DNA of 9,826 nucleotides, taken from IMG/VR virus record IMGVR_UViG_2619619132_000009. One strand, given 5' to 3'. A program made the position numbers and the translations under genes. The notes beneath the pieces were generated by a model that saw only the letters and a program-made list of their open reading frames with translations, searched no databases and was not told the DNA's origin. This document shows, piece by piece, positions 1-6,421 of this stretch (position 1 is the first letter of the stretch; the number at the start of each line of letters is the position of its first letter). The DNA comes from a virus. Lineage: Duplodnaviria > Heunggongvirae > Uroviricota > Caudoviricetes.

Positions 1-124
1 TCGGTTTACGGGAAACGGTAAACAGGGCGGCGAATGCCCTGCCATCGGACGGCACCGCCGTTGCCGCGAACAGGCTGGCAAATGCCCACACAATTAATGG
101 TGTTCCCTTTGACGGGACGCAGGA
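1..124. repeat. Left copy of the inverted repeat flanking the invertible tail-fibre segment; may extend upstream of the window
   Basis: Positions 1-124 are the exact reverse complement of 1196-1319 (checked base by base; identity breaks at 125/1195). Confidence 0.9.
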
Positions 125-353
125 TATCACTATCTCATCAGGAACAGTAACCGCCATAAGACTGGGGTCGGTGACCGCACATATGCCCGGAACATGGGAA
201 AGCTGGGATCTGAATCTGGGGGGCGGCAATGTTCTTACCGGAATTAAAGTACAGGATGTCGGTAAGAATACGGCAGATAACGTCGGCGGCGTGTATTACC
301 GGCCGTTGCAGTATCTGTTAAATGGAGCATGGGTGACGGCTGCAAGTATATAA
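1..353 (+). CDS. Phage tail-fibre protein, C-terminal portion (5' end lies upstream of the window); currently expressed tip Sv
   Basis: Open frame from position 3 to TAA at 351-353 with no stop (GLRETVNRAANALPSDGTAVAANRLANAHTINGVPFDGTQDITISSG...YYRPLQYLLNGAWVTAASI). Motifs are typical of side tail-fibre C-termini. A Tfa gene and an invertase gene lie adjacent. Confidence 0.8.
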   Translation, partial: GLRETVNRAANALPSDGTAVAANRLANAHTINGVPFDGTQDITISSGTVTAIRLGSVTAHMPGTWESWDLNLGGGNVLTGIKVQDVGKNTADNVGGVYYRPLQYLLNGAWVTAASI

Positions 354-361
354 TGATATTC

Positions 362-387
362 AGAAGGCCTTCCGGCCTTCTTTATTA
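362..387 (+). terminator. Stem-loop between the convergent tail-fibre tip and tfa genes, probable intrinsic terminator
   Basis: Perfect 8-bp stem AGAAGGCC/GGCCTTCT with a TTCC loop (362-381), followed by TTATTA. It lies between the Sv stop (353) and the tfa stop (385). Confidence 0.45.
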
Positions 388-906
388 CTGTGGCTGCTCA
401 GGCCATTTAATGGCGTTAAATTCAGCTTCTGTTTTAATGGCGGGTAGTTCCATTTTCTTCACCTGACTGATGTATGCCATCCATTGGGTAAGTGCTGCTC
501 TGTCTTCATCGCTGATGGTGCCCAGTTGTAGCTCCGTTCTCCAGTCATTAATTTTTTCATATGCCTGATTAAGATATGACTGGCGCATTGCTTCCAGTTT
601 TCTTGCGTAGTTAACCGGAATACGGGAGATTATGCCATTATCAAACTTCCAGTTTCCTGAAATATCCGTGCCTTCAGGGAGTTCATCGACCTCAACCACA
701 GAAAACCCCGCAGGATACAGCGCCGAGGCGTCCTGTGATATTGAGCAGATAACGCCGCTGTCAGGTGTTATGCAAAGTTTATATTTTTTGGTGAATAATG
801 GCAGGGATTCGTAGAAATCCTTACCATCTTCACTCTGGAAATACTGAACATTATTACCATATGGCATATTTTCAGGATAATAACGGGTTATATTTTTTAG
901 TTCCAT
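385..906 (-). CDS. tfa: Tail-fibre assembly chaperone (Tfa family)
   Basis: 173-aa ORF with a strong RBS (AGGAGG, 5-nt spacer, ATG). The C-terminal region (...DRAALTQWMAYISQVKKMELPAIKTEAEFNAIKWPEQP) resembles the conserved Tfa C-terminal domain. It sits directly downstream of the minus-strand fibre tip. Confidence 0.8.
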   Translation of the reverse strand: MELKNITRYYPENMPYGNNVQYFQSEDGKDFYESLPLFTKKYKLCITPDSGVICSISQDASALYPAGFSVVEVDELPEGTDISGNWKFDNGIISRIPVNYARKLEAMRQSYLNQAYEKINDWRTELQLGTISDEDRAALTQWMAYISQVKKMELPAIKTEAEFNAIKWPEQPQ

Positions 907-957
907 AAAATCCTCCTGGAAATAAATCTGTTTTAAAATATATTATTTACTGACTAT

Positions 958-1319
958 TTATAACTGAGATACCGTAATCCATGTACCTCCGACTAATTTT
1001 TGCAGGGGTCTGAATGCTATAAAATCGTTTGAAGCATCAACTTTACTGTCAATCTGCAGGCCTGCCATAACATTACCGTACGCAGAGTAATATGCCCCAC
1101 CGTACATTACCTGCCTGTTCTCTGCTCCCAGCCTGATATCCTGGATATATCGGGAATCCGCATCCTGCTGTGTTATACCAGAAGTGATGTTTATGTCCTG
1201 CGTCCCGTCAAAGGGAACACCATTAATTGTGTGGGCATTTGCCAGCCTGTTCGCGGCAACGGCGGTGCCGTCCGATGGCAGGGCATTCGCCGCCCTGTTT
1301 ACCGTTTCCCGTAAACCGA
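958..1319 (-). CDS. Alternative tail-fibre C-terminal cassette (Sv'), without its own start in this orientation
   Basis: Hand translation of the minus strand continues in frame from the right inverted repeat to a TAA at 958-960 (...GTQDINITSGITQQDADSRYIQDIRLGAENRQVMYGGAYYSAYGNVMAGLQIDSKVDASNDFIAFRPLQKLVGGTWITVSQL). It ends in the same RPLQxLxxGxWxT motif as the plus-strand tip and has no in-frame start codon. Confidence 0.6.
1196..1319. repeat. Right copy of the inverted repeat of the invertible tail-fibre segment
   Basis: Exact reverse complement of 1-124. Confidence 0.9.
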
Positions 1320-1331
1320 GGTTTTCAGGAA
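1306..1331. other. Putative gix/hix-like crossover site for the serine invertase (12-2-12 dyad)
   Basis: TTCCCGTAAACC-GA-GGTTTTCAGGAA: two imperfect 12-bp inverted half-sites (10/12 match) around a central GA. It resembles the recalled Mu gix site (TTCCTGTAAACCGAGGTTTTGGATAA) and sits at the outer edge of the right repeat, 65 bp before the invertase start. The left partner would be centred on window position 1. Confidence 0.5.
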
Positions 1332-1396
1332 AGCCAGGATTAACTCTGTTTTATTCCTCATGCGACAATTCCGGCTTTTTATAATAAGGAAATCGT

Positions 1397-1969
1397 ATGC
1401 TGATTGGGTATATCAGGGTGTCAACAAATGACCAGAATACGGCGCTACAAAGAAATGCGCTGGAATGTGCAGGATGTGAGCTGTTTTTCGAAGACAGAAT
1501 AAGCGGTAAGACAAGGGAGCGTCCCGGACTTAAACGCGCATTAAAGCGACTCCGGCCAGGGGATACCCTGCTGGTCTGGAAACTGGATCGCCTTGGACGC
1601 AGTATGCAGCACCTTGTCCTTTTAACAGAAGAACTCCGGCAACGCGGCGTTAACTTCCGCAGCATTACGGACAATATTGATACATCCACTCCCATGGGAC
1701 GTTTCTTTTTCCATATAATGGGCGCGCTGGCGGAAATGGAGCGGGAACTCATTATTGAACGTACACGCGCGGGTCTTGCTGCTGCCCGTGCTCAGGGGCG
1801 TCATGGCGGCAGACCTCAGAAACTGACAGAGAAAGAGCGGGAGCAAATCGCCCGTTTGCTGGCTAATGGCGAGTCCCGTAAACAAATCGCACTGATATTT
1901 GATATTGGCCTTTCCACCCTTTATCGTTATTTTCCTGCCTCACCAGCTCCGTCACCAAAAGTACCGTGA
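1397..1969 (+). CDS. pin: Serine DNA invertase of the Gin/Pin/Hin family
   Basis: 190 aa, MLIGYIRVSTNDQNTALQRNALECAGCE...VWKLDRLGRSMQHL...MGRFFFHIMGALAEMERELIIERTRAGL... Near-collinear with Mu Gin and e14 Pin as recalled, with the catalytic Ser in the RVST motif and a C-terminal HTH. Preceded by RBS AAGGA. Confidence 0.9.
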   Translation: MLIGYIRVSTNDQNTALQRNALECAGCELFFEDRISGKTRERPGLKRALKRLRPGDTLLVWKLDRLGRSMQHLVLLTEELRQRGVNFRSITDNIDTSTPMGRFFFHIMGALAEMERELIIERTRAGLAAARAQGRHGGRPQKLTEKEREQIARLLANGESRKQIALIFDIGLSTLYRYFPASPAPSPKVP

Positions 1970-2054
1970 CGCTTTTTTGAATTTCCGCAAAACACATATT
2001 TTTCAGCGGTCGCTATTCTGACTCTGTTTAATTCAGAAACAGGCAGAAAAGACG

Positions 2055-4109
2055 ATGTCAGACTCCAAGTGGAAAATGCTCTCCGCCATGCCCGGAGAGT
2101 TTTCAGTCAAGGTTGCCGGTGGCACGGTGGCATTTATTGAAAGCCCTTTCCGCCCTTCGGGTAATAAAGGGGGGATCACCTTCGCAGACTGCGTGATCCG
2201 CTTCAGCACGAAAGAGCCATTATGGGTAATGCCGGTATCCGGTAATCCCAGTGCAGAAATCACCAGTTCAGGCGTGACTGGCATCATTCCAATCACATCT
2301 GACGTGGCCGGAACGCTCACGCCCTCCGACTGGAATGCACCGGATAACGCCGGGCCTTCCGGTAGCACGAATGGCAGCAGTTCAGAGCCGGAATATTACT
2401 TTGTTGTCATTCTCGCGGGTCAGTCAAATGGCATGGCCTACGGCGAGGGGCTGCCGTTACCGGATTCGTTTGACCGCCCGGACCCACGCATTAAGCAACT
2501 GGCACGCCGCAGTACGGTAACGCCCAACGGTACGTCGTGTACATACAACGACATCATTCCGGCAGACCACTGCCTGCATGATGTTCAGGATATGAGCGGG
2601 ATAAACCACCCGAAAGCTGATCTGGCAAAAGGCCAGTACGGGACTGTCGGTCAGGGGTTGCATATTGCCAAAAAACTGCTTCCCTATATCCCACAGAATG
2701 CCGGGATACTTCTGGTGCCCTGTTGTCGTGGCGGGTCAGCATTCACCACTGGAGCCGACGGCTCATTCAGTGAGGCCAGCGGTGCTTCCGCTGATTCTTC
2801 ACGCTGGGGGGCCGGTAAACCTCTGTATCAGGACCTGGTAAGCCGCACCAAAGTCGCGCTGGCGAAAAACCCGAAAAACAAACTTCTGGCTGTGGTCTGG
2901 ATGCAGGGAGAGGCAGACCTTGCCTCAGGAAGCCAGCAGCATAATAGTTTATTCACGGCCATGGTTCAGCAGTTCAGAACTGACCTGGCTCCGCTTGCTG
3001 CGCAGTGCGTGAGTGGAAATGCCACCACGGTGCCGTGGATTTGCGGTGATACCACGTATTACTGGAAAAACGCTGGCACCGATAAATATGAGGCAGTATA
3101 CGGTGGCTACAAAGGCAAGGAAGCACAGAAAATTTTCTTTGTACCGTTCCTGACGGATGAGAATGGACAGAGCACGCCAACGAATGCTCCGGCGGAAGAC
3201 CCGGATATTGTGGCTGTCGGGTATTACGGTGCAGCATCCCGAACCCAGGGCAGTTTTGTTTCGACACAGCGTGACAGCCATTTCAGCTCATGGGCACGCA
3301 GGGGCGTCATTTCAGACCGTCTGGCCTCAGCTATTATGCTCCATGCAGGGCGCACGGCTGAACTGATGCGCGGGCAGACCGTGACACCACCGGATGAGAA
3401 GCCGTCACCTGATACACCATCAAAACCGTCCACGCCACCCGCAGACACCACGACGATGAGTACGCTATTTGCTTACCGGGCATCTGAGTCTGAAGGACGG
3501 TTGACACCACAGGGTTGGGCTGCCGGAGGTGGCAAGGCTCAAATCGTGGATGATGCCGGAGCCAGCGGGGGTAAGGCAATGAAACTGACCAAGGAAACAG
3601 GAAGAGCCCCCTGGTACCTTGAGCATGATGCTGGTAATGGTGCGGACCTGCTGGGTAAAGGTGGTCTTGTCAGTTGTCGTTTTAAACTCGATGGCGCGCT
3701 TACGGCTAATCAGTACGCACTGGCGCTGTACTGGCCGGTTTCTGCCCTGCCGCAAGGGGTTACTCTGGAAGGAAATGCCGGTCATAACCTGCTGGCATCG
3801 TTCTACGTACAGAGCGATGCCACAGACCTTAACGTGATGTATCACAAAGGAAACACGGCGCAGAACACGAAGCTGGGGTCATTCGGCGCATTTAATAACG
3901 AATGGCATACGCTGGGCTTCCGTTTTGCCGGTAACAACAGTATTGAGGTGACGCCGGTCATTGATGGTAAGGACGGGACACCATTCATGCTGTCGCAGTC
4001 TCCGGTCGGCACGTTTACGGCAGACAAGTTGCGCGTGACCGATATCACTAAAAATGCGACTTACCCGGTACTGATTGACAGTATCGTGGTGGAAGTGAAT
4101 AACGCGTAA
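2055..4109 (+). CDS. Prophage NanS-p-like sialate O-acetylesterase (SGNH/SASA esterase) with N-terminal extension and C-terminal lectin-like domain
   Basis: 684 aa. The core YYFVVILAGQSNGMAYGEGLPLPD...PRIKQLARRSTVTP...GILLVPCCRGGSAFT...VWMQGEAD resembles recalled E. coli NanS/YjhS and prophage NanS-p proteins. A P/T/S-rich linker (PPDEKPSPDTPSKPSTPPADTTT) is followed by about 230 aa that look like a beta-sandwich carbohydrate-binding domain. Confidence 0.6.
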   Translation: MSDSKWKMLSAMPGEFSVKVAGGTVAFIESPFRPSGNKGGITFADCVIRFSTKEPLWVMPVSGNPSAEITSSGVTGIIPITSDVAGTLTPSDWNAPDNAGPSGSTNGSSSEPEYYFVVILAGQSNGMAYGEGLPLPDSFDRPDPRIKQLARRSTVTPNGTSCTYNDIIPADHCLHDVQDMSGINHPKADLAKGQYGTVGQGLHIAKKLLPYIPQNAGILLVPCCRGGSAFTTGADGSFSEASGASADSSRWGAGKPLYQDLVSRTKVALAKNPKNKLLAVVWMQGEADLASGSQQHNSLFTAMVQQFRTDLAPLAAQCVSGNATTVPWICGDTTYYWKNAGTDKYEAVYGGYKGKEAQKIFFVPFLTDENGQSTPTNAPAEDPDIVAVGYYGAASRTQGSFVSTQRDSHFSSWARRGVISDRLASAIMLHAGRTAELMRGQTVTPPDEKPSPDTPSKPSTPPADTTTMSTLFAYRASESEGRLTPQGWAAGGGKAQIVDDAGASGGKAMKLTKETGRAPWYLEHDAGNGADLLGKGGLVSCRFKLDGALTANQYALALYWPVSALPQGVTLEGNAGHNLLASFYVQSDATDLNVMYHKGNTAQNTKLGSFGAFNNEWHTLGFRFAGNNSIEVTPVIDGKDGTPFMLSQSPVGTFTADKLRVTDITKNATYPVLIDSIVVEVNNA

Positions 4110-4124
4110 GCAGGATAAAAAAAT

Positions 4125-4157
4125 GCCGCCGGTAAGGGAAAACAAGAAACCGGCGGC
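4125..4157 (-). terminator. GC-rich stem-loop flanked by A-runs on the plus strand (T-runs on the minus strand); terminator-like, orientation favours leftward transcripts
   Basis: 9-bp perfect stem GCCGCCGGT/ACCGGCGGC (4125-4133, 4149-4157), preceded by AAAAAAAT and followed by AAAAAG. Confidence 0.35.
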
Positions 4158-4253
4158 AAAAAGATCGTTATATCCAAAGCAAAAAATGCAGTGCACCTTT
4201 TTACCTAACAGATATTACCGGTGTCAACACCATGTCAATAATTGGGAGGGATA

Positions 4254-4436
4254 ATGACATTTTTACAGCTTATTTTATTGTATTTCTGCACGGCAGTATG
4301 TGCGTTATATCTGGTGAGTGGTGGTTATAAGGCCATCAGAAATTATGTTCGCCGCAAAATTGAGGACGCAGCAGCTGAAAAACTCAGTAAAACAGCGCAG
4401 GTAACTCCGCTCCCAAAAGACCCGACCCAGCCCTGA
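4254..4436 (+). CDS. Small hypothetical membrane protein (60 aa, one N-terminal hydrophobic helix)
   Basis: RBS GGGAGGG (4244-4250) then ATG at 4254. MTFLQLILLYFCTAVCALYLVSGGYKAIRNYVRRKIEDAAAEKL... The track's TTG at 4242 overlaps the RBS, so 4254 is preferred. Confidence 0.5.
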   Translation: MTFLQLILLYFCTAVCALYLVSGGYKAIRNYVRRKIEDAAAEKLSKTAQVTPLPKDPTQP

Positions 4437-4471
4437 TTGCAGGGCTTTATTCCCGCATAAGGAGGATATAC

Positions 4472-4726
4472 ATGCCAGAAATTAAAGGCACCGTCACTGA
4501 AGACCTGGTAAAACAGGCACTGTATTCCGGTGAAGTAAATAAGTTGCTGAAAGCGCAGGTCCGCAAGGATTTTGAGGCACAAATCGACACTTACGTTGAT
4601 GAAGTGCTGGCAAAACTTATTGGGCCAGCAGTTGCGGCCAGTGATGCTGATAATGAGCCGAAAACCGACGCGCAGCCAGAGCAACCAGACCCGGCTCAGC
4701 CCGGAACTGACAGTACCATGATGTAA
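4472..4726 (+). CDS. Small hypothetical protein (84 aa, acidic Pro-rich C-terminus)
   Basis: Strong RBS AAGGAGG with a 6-nt spacer before ATG 4472. No recognisable family. Confidence 0.55.
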   Translation: MPEIKGTVTEDLVKQALYSGEVNKLLKAQVRKDFEAQIDTYVDEVLAKLIGPAVAASDADNEPKTDAQPEQPDPAQPGTDSTMM

Positions 4727-4731
4727 CAATA

Positions 4732-4759
4732 CAAACCGGTGGTGTCCTCTGCCGGTTTG
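4732..4759 (+). terminator. Weak stem-loop after the 84-aa ORF
   Basis: CAAACCGG...CCGGTTTG 8-bp stem with a 12-nt loop immediately after the stop at 4724-4726; no clear U-tract. Confidence 0.3.
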
Positions 4760-4986
4760 ACACTAATGAAAACATCTTTGCCGCTATCCAGCCATATGTA
4801 ATCGCTGGATAGTATTTCGTATTCAGAAATATAGCTGCTTATGGAGCAGTCAATCCTGCTTCCCCATCCGGGCAGGCAAATGAACCGGTATCATTAGTCC
4901 GATTCACGCTTTTGTAGAATCGTTCCCAGAATGCTATACAGCTCATTAGCCTGTTGCTCCATCATTGAGACGGAGGCTATACGGTG

Positions 4987-4995
4987 CAAAGTGAT
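4987..4995. repeat. Left 9-bp target-site duplication of IS1 (CAAAGTGAT)
   Basis: Identical 9-mer directly abuts both IS1 ends (4987-4995 and 5764-5772). Confidence 0.85.
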
Positions 4996-5050
4996 GGTAA
5001 TGCTGCCAACTTACTGATTTAGTGTATGATGGTGATTTTAAGGTGCTTGC

Positions 5051-5326
5051 GTGGCTTCCATTTCCATCAGATGTCCTTCCTGCTCCGCTACTGAAGGCGT
5101 GGTGCGTAACGGCAAAAGTACTGCCGGATATCAGCGCTATCTCTGCTCTCATTGCCGTAAAACATGGCAACTACAGTTCACTTACACCGCCTCTCAGCCC
5201 GGTAAGCACCAGAAAATCATTGATATGGCCATGAATGGCGTCGGATGTCGCGCCAGTGCACGCATTATGGGCGTTGGCCTCAACACGGTTTTACGTCACT
5301 TAAAAAACTCAGGCCGCAGTCGGTAA
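5051..5326 (+). CDS. insA: IS1 InsA (zinc-finger/HTH transposition regulator)
   Basis: [43 protein letters not shown]...[14 protein letters not shown], 91 aa, GTG start. Confidence 0.9.
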
Positions 5327-5748
5327 CCTCGCGCATACAACCGGGCAGTGATGTGATTGTCTGCGCTGAAATGGACGAACAGTGGGGCTACGTCGGTGCT
5401 AAATCACGTCAGCGCTGGCTGTTTTACGCGTATGACAGGATACGGAGGACGGTTGTGGCGCACGTCTTCGGTGAACGCACTCTGGCCACACTGGAGCGTC
5501 TTCTGAGCCTGCTGTCGGCCTTTGAGGTCGTGGTATAGATGACGGATGGCTGGCCGCTGTATGAATCACGCCTGAAGGGAAAGCTGCACGTTATCAGCAA
5601 GCGTTACACTCAGCGCATTGAGCGACATAATCTGAATCTGAGACAACATCTGGCAAGGCTGGGACGGAAGTCACTGTCGTTCTCAAAATCGGTGGAGCTG
5701 CATGACAAGGTCATCGGGCATTATCTGAACATAAAACACTATCAGTAA
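5245..5748 (+). pseudogene. insB: IS1 insB frame interrupted by an in-frame amber codon
   Basis: The InsB frame reads ...LSAFEVVV then TAG at 5536-5538, then [69 protein letters not shown] in the same frame. Canonical IS1 as recalled has ...VVIW MTDGW here, implying TGG to TAG. Confidence 0.7.
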
Positions 5749-5763
5749 GTTGGAGTCATTACC

Positions 5764-5772
5764 CAAAGTGAT
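5764..5772. repeat. Right 9-bp target-site duplication of IS1 (CAAAGTGAT)
   Basis: Identical to 4987-4995. Confidence 0.85.
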
Positions 5773-6154
5773 TTCAGGAGGTGGCACACCTCCATCTTCT
5801 TGCTGTGGAGGAAAAACATAAGATTTAATAAAAAAGTTGAAGCATATGAACTCTCCCGCACTCGAACTGTATTTGCAGGCATCTGAATAATCGGAAAAAT
5901 AATCATTATAGATTTCCGCATTTTCAATCATTTTTCGATTTCTCGTCGTTACATGATTGTCCATAGCAGCCTCTTACGCTGGCAATTAACCAATTGACTT
6001 CTATAAATTAGTTGATTTGTTTGCTTTGCGGTATTCAAATGTACAATCATTCAGCACTTATGCGTTACAGCACCGTTTAAAATTAGTGATCAAACTCATA
6101 AATTTTCGCTAATGACATTTCGTGTTATTTGTTGTATCAATTAAATAAATCAAA

Positions 6155-6177
6155 TCGATCGTTTTTGTCGATCGATT
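6155..6177. promoter_or_regulatory. Perfect palindrome ATCGATCG-N7-CGATCGAT carrying two Dam (GATC) sites, upstream of com-mom; candidate methylation-sensitive operator
   Basis: 8-bp perfect inverted repeat with a 7-bp T-rich spacer. GATC at 6157-6160 and 6170-6173, with a third GATC at 6088-6091, all within about 135 bp upstream of the com ATG in an AT-rich divergent intergenic region. Confidence 0.45.
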
Positions 6178-6220
6178 GAGTGATAAAGATATCAACAACA
6201 AAGCAGGAGGTTATGCGGCC

Positions 6221-6421
6221 ATGTATCGAAACATACGGTGCCGACATTGTAACAAGCTACTGGCACGAGCCAGCTTCAGTTATCTGGAAGTTAAATGTCC
6301 GCGCTGTAAAACCCTCAATCAAATCACATCTCAGAGCGCCACAGAGCACCCCACATACACAAGGAAATCCTGTCGTGGGGAACAGAAAGCAAGTTACATC
6401 CCGTATCATCAGCACGCCTGA
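6221..6421 (+). CDS. com: Com-like zinc-ribbon translational activator (phage Mu Com family)
   Basis: [35 protein letters not shown]... has Cys at 7, 10, 26 and 29 (CxxC-N15-CxxC) and strong resemblance to recalled Mu Com (MKSIRCKNCNKLL...IRCPRCK). RBS AGGAGG lies 10 nt upstream; the 3' end overlaps the next gene. Confidence 0.75.

What the first reader, a model, noticed from the sequence alone, without database searches (positions are those of the whole stretch)
6080..6200. Dam-site palindrome upstream of com-mom suggests methylation-gated expression
A perfect ATCGATCG-N7-CGATCGAT palindrome holds two GATC sites 13 bp apart, and a third GATC lies 66 bp further upstream, all within about 135 bp of the com start. 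In phage Mu, mom transcription is gated by three upstream GATC sites whose Dam methylation blocks OxyR repression. This cluster is a plausible analogue with a different, strictly symmetric layout that could be an operator for a dimeric regulator.
Basis: partly seen in the sequence, partly recalled or inferred. Interest (0 to 1): 0.5.

Follow-up and report, generated by a model that had tools for sequence, protein, structure and literature searches.

The report
Dam/OxyR operator before prophage com-mom
The GATC palindrome upstream of com-mom in this Mu-like E. coli prophage is the same methylation-sensitive OxyR binding element already known from phage Mu mom, E. coli agn43 and P22 gtr, so it is a real regulatory site of an ordinary, known kind.

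Summary
AATCGATCG-N7-CGATCGATT lies at 6153-6177, with GATCs at 6157 and 6170 and a third at 6088, 133 bp before the com ATG (6221).

The layout is not new. Mu has AATCGATC-N9-GATCGATT at its GATC sites II and III. K-12 agn43 has TATCGATCG-N7-CGATCGATA. P22 gtr has TTGATCG-N7-CGATCAA twice. All are OxyR dimer half-sites (ATAGnTnnnAnCTAT) in which positions 3 and 13 are changed to create two Dam sites 13 bp apart.

Seventeen diverged com-mom lineages give the consensus GATCGnTnnnAnCGATC. In ten E. coli variants the 25-bp palindrome is the longest invariant run. A 17-bp block 31 bp upstream, a candidate second half-site, is also invariant.

The third GATC is not conserved and lies outside the shared module.

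Compared with Mu, this lineage lacks GATC site I and the C-activator site. The palindrome sits 27 bp closer to com, over the -35 region, as the repressing OxyR(BC) site does in gtr.

Best reading: unmethylated DNA binds OxyR and com-mom is off, while Dam methylation releases it. Binding, transcription start and activator dependence are all untested. This is a new member of a known kind, of low interest.

The parts
6153..6177 (.). Perfect palindrome AATCGATCG-TTTTTGT-CGATCGATT. Interpreted as the promoter-proximal, Dam-sensitive OxyR dimer half-site with its flanks.
   Evidence: Inverted repeat I11. It is the 25-bp longest invariant run in ten E. coli variants. The same design is found in Mu, agn43 and P22 gtr.
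6158..6172 (.). 15-bp core ATCGTTTTTGTCGAT, aligned to the OxyR half-site consensus ATAGnTnnnAnCTAT (7 of 10 positions). Two of the three mismatches, at positions 3 and 13, are the changes that create the GATCs; the third is G for A at position 10.
   Evidence: Consensus scan. Family consensus GATCGnTnnnAnCGATC from 17 diverged lineages. OxyR half-site consensus and the GATC-pair-in-half-site arrangement are described in PMC2909390.
6157..6160 (.). Dam site in the left arm. Its adenine is position 1 of the half-site.
   Evidence: Invariant in all 17 lineages.
6170..6173 (.). Dam site in the right arm. Its bottom-strand adenine is position 15 of the half-site.
   Evidence: Invariant in all 17 lineages.
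6127..6141 (.). Candidate distal OxyR half-site ATTTGTTGTATCAAT (7 of 10), with no GATC, 31 bp centre to centre from the proximal one.
   Evidence: Consensus scan. It lies inside the 17-bp invariant block 6126-6142. Mu shows the same 31-bp geometry, ATAGAAAACGACGAT plus ATCGGTAATACAGAT. The family consensus keeps AT...AT at this offset. The score alone is not significant in this AT-rich DNA.
6181..6195 (+). Region holding the two candidate -10 elements: TGaTAAAGA (TG 6181-6182, hexamer 6184-6189) and TATCAA (6190-6195). The predicted transcription start is about 6196-6203, not mapped.
   Evidence: No consensus sigma-70 promoter on this strand. By position it matches Mu TAAGAT and TATACT, TATAGT and TGaTAGATT in relatives with the same short architecture. 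The region varies among E. coli lineages, so the assignment is uncertain.
6196..6217 (+). Invariant leader with the Shine-Dalgarno sequence AGGAGG (6205-6210).
   Evidence: 22-bp invariant run; sequence.
6221..6421 (+). com, the zinc-ribbon translational activator of mom.
   Evidence: Pfam PF10122, E = 7.5e-13. Annotated as Com in identical E. coli prophages.
6375..7112 (+). mom, the DNA adenine hypermodification enzyme, overlapping the end of com.
   Evidence: Pfam PF25680, E = 7.8e-78. About 72% nucleotide identity to Mu mom.
6088..6091 (.). It is specific to this lineage, lies outside the conserved module, and is probably not part of the operator.
   Evidence: Not conserved in the other E. 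coli lineages, whose homology begins near 6112.

Best explanation
The palindrome is the promoter-proximal half of a Dam-methylation-sensitive binding site for the host regulator OxyR, and it gates transcription of the prophage's com-mom operon.

OxyR binds as a dimer of dimers. One dimer would sit on ATCG-N7-CGAT (6158-6172). The other would sit on a GATC-free half-site 31 bp upstream (6127-6141).

The two methylatable adenines are the outermost bases of the proximal half-site. When Dam has methylated both GATCs, OxyR cannot bind and the promoter is free. A phage late activator is probably also needed. When the sites are unmethylated, as in a dam- host or on newly replicated copies, OxyR occupies about 6127-6172. 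Because the proximal half-site covers the -35 region, this blocks RNA polymerase, as at P22 gtr OxyR(BC) and agn43.

Shown here: the sequence, its homology to three experimentally characterised operators, and its conservation. Inferred: OxyR binding, its sensitivity to methylation, the transcription start, the sign of regulation and the need for an activator.
For: 1. Homology to Mu. Mu has AATCGATC-N9-GATCGATT at GATC sites II and III, preceded by the same ATCAATTAAAT motif. Dam and OxyR control of Mu Pmom is established (PMC3378877; PMC2909390).

2. agn43. The K-12 operator carries TATCGATCG-TTTATAT-CGATCGATA, with the same 9-bp arms and 7-nt spacer.

3. P22 gtr. Half-sites A and C are TTGATCG-N7-CGATCAA. 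Each GATC pair is 13 bp apart inside one OxyR half-site, and methylation abolishes binding.

4. Family consensus. Seventeen diverged com-mom lineages give atcGATCGnTnnnAnCGATCgatt. This recovers T6 and A10 of the OxyR motif independently.

5. GATC geometry. GATC positions in the lineages with Mom at least 77% identical whose full upstream region was in view, bar one, fit arm positions {0, 13, 31, 44} of a two-half-site operator:
- Mu type: 13, 31, 44
- L004, L006, L056, L057: 0, 31, 44
- L003: 0, 13, 31
- L007, L008, L075: 13, 31
- this window: 31, 44
. L060 is one base off (spacings 19 and 13). L074 (Mom 69% identical) does not fit (spacing 24).

6. Conservation in E. coli. The palindrome (25 bp) and the distal block (17 bp) are invariant in ten variants while the DNA between and after them varies.

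7. Specificity to mom. Neither block recurs at other late promoters of the same prophage.

8. Distribution. Non-enteric com-mom loci and the com-less class lack the GATC cluster.

9. Position. The palindrome is centred at about -32 to -38 from the predicted start. The repressing gtr site has GATCs at -46 and -33.
Against: - No binding, methylation or expression data exist for this locus.
- The match to the OxyR consensus is not significant on its own in this AT-rich DNA (P about 0.13-0.19). The validated Mu site scores no better, 13 of 20.
- The distal half-site is 31 bp away. This matches my reading of Mu, but agn43 and gtr have 32 bp.
- The transcription start is unmapped. The putative -10 region is the least conserved part of the module, so the claim that the site overlaps the -35 rests on weak promoter predictions.
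- OxyR sites ending near -30 are also typical of OxyR-activated promoters, so the sign of regulation could be the opposite.
Confidence: 0.72

Rival explanations
1. The palindrome is the binding site of the phage's own dimeric late activator. This is the Mor/C-family protein encoded at L001 12789-13211, which would activate com-mom from a site overlapping the -35 as Mu C does.
For: - The palindrome sits at about -44 to -20, roughly where Mu C binds, overlapping the -35.
- The Mu-type C site TTATGCCCCAATAA is absent here, and the segment is 27 bp shorter.
- There is no consensus sigma-70 promoter, so an activator is probably needed.
- The prophage has a C orthologue 40% identical to Mu C.
Against: - Neither the palindrome nor its half-site recurs anywhere else in the 38.6-kb prophage, including upstream of lys and the head genes, where a late activator must also act.
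- The same element exists in Mu upstream of the separate, mapped C site.
- It also exists in agn43 and gtr, which have no C protein.
- The family consensus is the OxyR motif.
Confidence: 0.1
2. OxyR does bind, but in this short architecture it works as an activator. The site ends near -30, as at oxyS, katG and ahpC. Dam methylation would then turn com-mom off rather than on.
For: - The predicted OxyR site spans about -76/-70 to -31/-25.
- There is no recognisable -35.
- OxyR acts as an activator at gtr when bound at site AB.
Against: - The only characterised sites with a GATC-pair half-site over the -35 (gtr BC) or over the start (agn43) are repressing.
- Mu mom is repressed by OxyR.
- A half-site centred at -32 to -38 would clash with sigma region 4.
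Confidence: 0.08
3. The palindrome acts as an RNA or DNA hairpin: an intrinsic terminator for leftward transcription, or a leader structure.
For: - The scan flags the minus strand as terminator-like, with a 9-bp stem, a 7-nt loop and a T-rich tail.
- The predicted hairpins are -13.6 and -11.6 kcal/mol, z about -2.5 to -2.9.
- Mu has a divergent momP2 promoter.
Against: - There is no U tract on the plus strand.
- Only 4 G-C pairs form the stem.
- No gene is positioned to be terminated.
- Across 17 lineages only the GATC tetramers are always complementary. Neighbouring stem positions pair in only 7 of 17 and 11 of 17 lineages, with no compensatory changes. This is the pattern of a symmetric protein site, not of a selected helix.
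- If the start is at 6196-6203, the palindrome is not transcribed on the plus strand.
Confidence: 0.04
4. It is a chance palindrome with no function.
For: Short palindromes are common in AT-rich intergenic DNA, and 1.9% of shuffles reach 9-bp arms.
Against: - The 13-bp GATC pair appears in only 0.1% of shuffles.
- The palindrome is the longest invariant run in ten variants.
- The pair is retained across Escherichia, Edwardsiella, Symbiopectobacterium, Pantoea, Sodalis and Mu itself, while the flanks are unalignable.
Confidence: 0.02

Closest known systems
Phage Mu mom promoter: Dam/OxyR control through three upstream GATC sites (Bolker & Kahmann 1989; Hattman & Sun 1997, as cited in PMC3378877 and PMC2909390)
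   Same: - It is the homologous locus: a com-mom operon at the right end of a transposable prophage.
- It has the same AATCGATC-N9-GATCGATT pair, equivalent to Mu sites II and III.
- The ATCAATTAAAT motif lies upstream in both.
- Both have a candidate distal half-site 31 bp away and a weak, non-consensus promoter.
   Different: - Mu site I, 18 bp upstream, is absent here.
- The Mu C-binding site TTATGCCCCAATAA, the -35 and the T6 spacer segment are missing. The distance from the GATC to the com ATG is 51 bp, against 78 bp in Mu.
- The operator therefore overlaps the core promoter instead of lying at about -55 to -100.
- Here the distal half-site carries no GATC.
E. coli agn43 (flu) Dam/OxyR phase-variation operator
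   Same: The proximal element is almost identical: TATCGATCG-TTTATAT-CGATCGATA against AATCGATCG-TTTTTGT-CGATCGATT. Both have a second half-site about 31-32 bp upstream, and both operators overlap the promoter or start region.
   Different: - agn43 has a third GATC in the distal half-site, 19 bp upstream.
- The agn43 operator spans the transcription start rather than the -35. This is inferred from the 5' end of the IsrC annotation.
- agn43 is a host gene with an autonomous sigma-70 promoter and proven phase variation.
Salmonella phage P22 gtr operon, OxyR(BC) repressor site (Broadbent et al. 2010, PMC2909390)
   Same: - It is prophage-borne.
- The proximal half-site is GATCG-N7-CGATC with two GATCs 13 bp apart over the -35 (gtr -46 and -33; here about -40 to -46 and -27 to -33).
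- The distal half-site has no GATC.
- Methylation of just two GATCs is enough to block OxyR.
   Different: - gtr has a third half-site (A) that turns OxyR into an activator and produces phase variation. No such upstream GATC pair exists here.
- Half-sites are 32 bp apart in gtr and 31 bp here.
- gtr has an intrinsically active promoter. This one probably needs a late activator.

Membership tests
Dam-methylation-sensitive OxyR operator (agn43 / Mu mom / P22 gtr type) | Two GATC sites 13 bp apart, forming the outer arms of an inverted repeat that matches the OxyR dimer half-site ATAGnTnnnAnCTAT | tested here: met
   ATCGTTTTTGTCGAT at 6158-6172 matches 7 of 10 positions. Two of the three mismatches are the changes that create the GATCs; the third is G for A at position 10. 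The design is identical in agn43, gtr and Mu. The family consensus is GATCGnTnnnAnCGATC.
Dam-methylation-sensitive OxyR operator (agn43 / Mu mom / P22 gtr type) | A second OxyR half-site about three helical turns away (31-32 bp), so that a tetramer can bind | tested here: inconclusive
   ATTTGTTGTATCAAT at 6127-6141 matches 7 of 10 positions at 31 bp and lies in a 17-bp invariant block. Scores of this size are common in AT-rich DNA: the null mean of the best half-site score is 7.0.
Dam-methylation-sensitive OxyR operator (agn43 / Mu mom / P22 gtr type) | The operator overlaps or abuts the promoter of the regulated gene | tested here: inconclusive
   The palindrome ends 43 bp before the com ATG. 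Both candidate -10 elements place it over the -35. The start site is not mapped and no consensus promoter is found.
Dam-methylation-sensitive OxyR operator (agn43 / Mu mom / P22 gtr type) | The host provides Dam and OxyR | tested here: met
   The element is an E. coli prophage, found in 233 of 5426 complete E. coli genomes. That E. coli has dam and oxyR is established knowledge. Non-enteric com-mom loci lack the GATC cluster.
Dam-methylation-sensitive OxyR operator (agn43 / Mu mom / P22 gtr type) | OxyR binds unmethylated DNA but not Dam-methylated DNA, and expression depends on dam and oxyR | not testable with these tools
   This needs EMSA or footprinting and reporter assays. No published data for this locus were found.
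Mu-type Pmom architecture | Three GATC sites spaced 18 and 13 bp apart | tested here: not met
   Only the 13-bp pair is present. The sequence 18 bp upstream is ATCA, not GATC. The next GATC is 69 bp away and is not conserved.
Mu-type Pmom architecture | A C-activator site (TTAT-N6-ATAA) plus a T6-containing spacer between the GATC cluster and the -10 | tested here: not met
   Mu has GATCGATTATGCCCCAATAACC...TTTTTTAAGAT. The window has GATCGATTGAGTGATAAAGAT, which is 27 bp shorter. L007 and L062 keep the Mu-type site.
Mu-type Pmom architecture | An overlapping com-mom operon downstream, at the right end of a transposable prophage | tested here: met
   Pfam identifies Com and Mom. The prophage ends at about 7240, with repeated GGTATCAAA end motifs.
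Late-activator (Mor/C family) binding site | A related site recurs at the phage's other late promoters | tested here: not met
   No second copy of the palindrome, its half-site or the distal block lies upstream of lys or the head or tail operons in the full prophage L001.
Intrinsic terminator | A G+C-rich stem followed by a U tract, with pairing preserved in relatives | tested here: not met
   The plus strand has no U tract. The minus strand is flagged, but with only 4 G-C pairs. Stem positions outside the GATCs are not kept complementary.

The most novel reading that the evidence does not exclude
This lineage's operator has a GATC-free distal half-site and a two-GATC proximal half-site over the -35. 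That is the same make-up as the P22 gtr construct carrying only OxyR(BC). That construct is locked OFF, with its GATCs protected from methylation.

The prophage copy may therefore be a stably unmethylated, OxyR-occupied lock in lysogens. It would open only when replicating phage genomes outnumber OxyR and Dam methylates the free copies, which would make it a copy-number timer for a toxic gene. Alternatively it may switch heritably, so that a subpopulation of lysogens expresses Mom, or the C5-methyltransferase that replaces mom in the L024 variant.
Probability: 0.12. Interest if true: 0.55.

Novelty: new member of a known kind. Interest (0 to 1): 0.2.

Why it matters
It shows that the Dam/OxyR gate described for Mu mom is a conserved feature of com-mom cassettes across enterobacterial Mu-like prophages, not a peculiarity of Mu. 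About 4% of complete E. coli genomes carry this version.

The gate tolerates different numbers and placements of GATCs, provided they fall on the arms of a two-half-site OxyR operator.

The version in this window is minimal: two GATCs, with the operator over the -35 and no Mu-type C site. It gives a simple natural test case for how many methylation sites OxyR needs, and for whether prophage-borne DNA-modification genes are epigenetically locked or phase-variable in lysogens.

For annotation, GATCG-N7-CGATC is a usable signature of Dam-sensitive OxyR half-sites.

Tried and rejected
1. Palindrome as a general late-activator site. I searched the complete prophage (L001) for the palindrome, CGATCG words, the half-site pattern and the invariant distal block. 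None lies at another late promoter.

2. Finding the C-homologue's motif. I compared the lys and head-gene upstream regions with Mu's late promoters. Only a loose ATAWTCCSGCA resemblance appears at Plys, and nothing comparable lies upstream of com. The activator site remains unidentified.

3. Scoring the OxyR consensus alone. It does not separate the site from shuffled AT-rich sequence. It was dropped as stand-alone evidence in favour of homology and conservation.

4. Hairpin or terminator reading. Rejected on the conservation pattern.

5. Third GATC as an analogue of Mu site I. Rejected because it is not conserved and lies outside the shared module.

6. Literature search for methylome or footprint data on Mu-like E. 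coli prophages. Nothing specific was found. The primary Mu and agn43 papers (PMC401183, PMC147061, PMC135096) are not held. The Mu footprint coordinates I use therefore rest on my own reading of the sequence and on memory.

7. Promoter scan. No consensus sigma-70 promoter lies on the com strand. The two -10 candidates disagree by 6 bp, and neither is well conserved.

Full report
**Context**

The window is the right end of a Mu-like E. coli prophage plus host DNA.
- Identical prophages occur in many E. coli genomes at different insertion sites. The match always ends at window position about 7240.
- A complete, uninterrupted copy (L001) shows a 38.6-kb Mu-type gene order: repressor, transposase A/B, gam, a Mor/C-family activator, lysis, head, tail, invertase, then com-mom.
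- In the window an IS1 sits at 4996-5764.
- com is 6221-6421 and mom is 6375-7112 (Pfam PF10122 and PF25680).
- A small ORF of unknown function runs divergently from 5964. The 256-bp region 5965-6220 is therefore the com-mom control region.

**The observation**

It is correct.
- The palindrome is AATCGATCG (6153-6161), TTTTTGT, CGATCGATT (6169-6177).
- GATCs start at 6157 and 6170. A third is at 6088.
- In dinucleotide shuffles of the intergenic region, a perfect arm of 9 bp or more occurs in 1.9%. A GATC pair 13 bp apart occurs in 0.1%.
- GATC is otherwise scarce: 9 in the window against 32 expected, and none in com-mom itself.

**What it is**

Reading Mu's own sequence settles the main point. 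Upstream of Mu com the sequence is GACGATCGAATCAATTAAATCGATCGGTAATACAGATCGATTATGCCCCAATAACC. Mu sites II and III therefore already form AATCGATC-N9-GATCGATT. This has the same symmetry and the same 13-bp spacing as the window, and the same ATCAATTAAAT motif precedes it.

Two other experimentally characterised Dam/OxyR operators share the design.
- E. coli K-12 agn43 has TATCGATCG-TTTATAT-CGATCGATA, with 9-bp arms and a 7-nt spacer.
- P22 gtr has TTGATCG-GTAACAA-CGATCAA and TTGATCG-CTTGTAT-CGATCAA, flanking a perfect ATAGATAAAAACTAT.
- Broadbent et al. (PMC2909390) showed three things for gtr. Each 13-bp GATC pair lies inside one OxyR dimer half-site (consensus ATAGxTxxxAxCTAT). Dam methylation of the pair abolishes OxyR binding. 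OxyR bound at the promoter-overlapping BC site represses.
- The window core ATCG-TTTTTGT-CGAT (6158-6172) is that half-site with positions 3 and 13 changed, which is what creates the two GATCs.

**Comparative evidence**

I collected com-mom loci from genomes and viral contigs.
- Among loci whose Mom is at least 77% identical and whose full upstream region was in view, all but three keep a GATC pair exactly 13 bp apart, about 205-255 bp before mom. This includes Mu, D108-like phages and prophages of Escherichia, Edwardsiella, Symbiopectobacterium, Pantoea and Sodalis.
- The exceptions are L007 (Scandinavium) and L075, which keep only an 18-bp pair, and L018, which has no cluster and aligns to Mom only from residue 62. 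Three more distant loci also differ. L008 (Neptunomonas, Mom 70% identical) has only the 18-bp pair, L074 (69%) has a pair 24 bp apart, and L015 has its 13-bp pair 434 bp before mom.
- A further GATC, when present, lies 18 bp (19 bp in L060) or 31 bp upstream, or 18 bp downstream. These positions fit GATCs occupying a subset of the four arm positions {0, 13, 31, 44} of an operator with two half-sites 31 bp apart. L060 is one base off and L074 does not fit.
- The window lineage uses only positions 31 and 44.
- Non-enteric com-mom loci, and a separate class of com-less mom loci, have no such cluster.
- Aligning 17 lineages that differ by at least 8 of 92 positions, anchored on the pair, gives the consensus atcGATCGnTnnnAnCGATCgatt. 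This independently recovers T6 and A10 of the OxyR motif. AT...AT is conserved at the ends of the predicted distal half-site.
- Stem positions outside the GATCs are not kept complementary (7 of 17 and 11 of 17). That argues against selection for a hairpin.

**Within E. coli**

- 233 of 5426 complete genomes carry a homologue, mostly sharing only window 6112-6225 at 88-93% identity.
- Across ten variants there are three long invariant runs: exactly the 25-bp palindrome (the longest; P = 0.0025 under random placement of variable columns), the leader with its Shine-Dalgarno sequence (22 bp), and TATTTGTTGTATCAATT (6126-6142).
- The last of these contains the best distal half-site candidate, ATTTGTTGTATCAAT, which matches 7 of 10 positions 31 bp from the proximal one.
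- The same register and 31-bp spacing give ATAGAAAACGACGAT plus ATCGGTAATACAGAT in Mu.

**What differs from Mu**

- The distance from the promoter-proximal GATC to the com ATG is 51 bp here and 78 bp in Mu.
- The Mu C-activator site (TTATGCCCCAATAA), the -35 and the T6 spacer have no counterpart.
- Relatives with the same short architecture carry a -10-like hexamer 7-10 bp after the palindrome: TATACT, TATAGT and TGaTAGATT.
- The window has TGaTAAAGA (hexamer 6184-6189) and, 6 bp further on, TATCAA (6190-6195). Neither is well conserved, and no consensus promoter is detected.
- Either choice puts the start at about 6196-6203 and the palindrome centre at -32 to -38, over the -35 region. That is close to gtr, whose GATCs lie at -46 and -33.
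- The prophage encodes a C orthologue 40% identical to Mu C. Its site could not be identified. Neither invariant block recurs at the prophage's other late promoters. This also argues against the palindrome being the activator site.

**Mechanism proposed**

Reduced OxyR binds unmethylated 6127-6172 and occludes the promoter. Dam methylation of the two adenines at the outer edges of the proximal half-site prevents binding and opens the promoter to RNA polymerase, probably with the late activator. Com then allows translation of mom.

The sequence homology and the conservation are shown. Binding, methylation sensitivity, the start site, the sign of regulation and the activator requirement are inferred.

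The gtr BC-only construct has the same composition, is locked OFF and has protected GATCs. This locus may likewise be OxyR-occupied and unmethylated in lysogens. Existing SMRT or nanopore data could test that.

**Caveats**

- The consensus score alone is not significant in this AT-rich DNA.
- The primary Mu and agn43 papers were not available.
- No data specific to this locus were found.

**Verdict**

This is a real, conserved regulatory element of a known kind: a Dam-gated OxyR operator homologous to that of Mu mom. It occurs here in a minimal two-GATC arrangement that overlaps the promoter. The claims that the layout is novel, and that the third GATC plays a role, are not supported.

Noticed in passing
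L024 1310-2514 (E. coli 89-3156, NZ_CP027366.1): In this variant the same operator, leader and com gene are followed by a C-5 cytosine DNA methyltransferase (PF00145) instead of mom. Homology to the com-mom sequence breaks about 10 nt after the downstream gene's GTG start. A different DNA-modification gene has therefore been swapped in behind the Com and Dam/OxyR control module.
   Followed up: partly
window 7242-9200 (+), and 7241-9826: The host DNA next to the prophage end encodes the C-terminal two-thirds of an Ag43-family autotransporter. It is 68% identical to K-12 Flu from residue 297, and nearly identical in the beta-domain. The prophage has therefore disrupted an agn43 allele, which is itself the paradigm Dam/OxyR-controlled gene. 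This flank has no GATC in 2586 bp (9.7 expected). The K-12 flu coding sequence also has none in 3120 bp (11.3 expected).
   Followed up: partly
window 4996-5764: An IS1 copy is inserted in the prophage accessory region. It truncates the 3' end of the small divergent ORF, which is 5683-5964 on the minus strand here and 86 aa with no Pfam hit in intact copies. It lies about 390 bp from the palindrome and does not touch the control region.
   Followed up: partly
window 7155-7240; L001 3225-3340: Repeated GGTATCAAA motifs lie at the right end (about 7161, 7193 and 7216). Their reverse complement TTTGATACC occurs at the left end of the complete prophage. These look like terminal transposase-binding sites of this Mu-like element.
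   Followed up: no
window 1-7240: GATC is strongly depleted in the right-hand accessory part of the prophage: 6 in the first 4995 bp against about 19.5 expected. The prophage as a whole is only mildly depleted, 115 against 151.
   Followed up: no
window 2055-4109 (+): A 684-aa protein lies between the invertase and com. It has a SASA (sialate O-acetylesterase-like) domain and a C-terminal DUF6645. DUF1378 and DUF826 ORFs follow it. This accessory cargo is not found in Mu.
   Followed up: no
L076-L107 (viral contigs), L011-L014, L017: A second class of Mom homologues, about 69-70% identical, sits in the middle of 40-50-kb phage contigs. These loci have no GATC cluster upstream. In the genome-contig members tested (L011-L014, L017) no com was found. 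They presumably use a different control scheme.
   Followed up: no
window 6153-6195, minus strand: The palindrome plus its T-rich left flank is flagged as terminator-like on the minus strand. A weaker inverted repeat, TGATA-N4-TATCA (6181-6194), overlaps the candidate -10 region but is not conserved in other E. coli lineages.
   Followed up: yes
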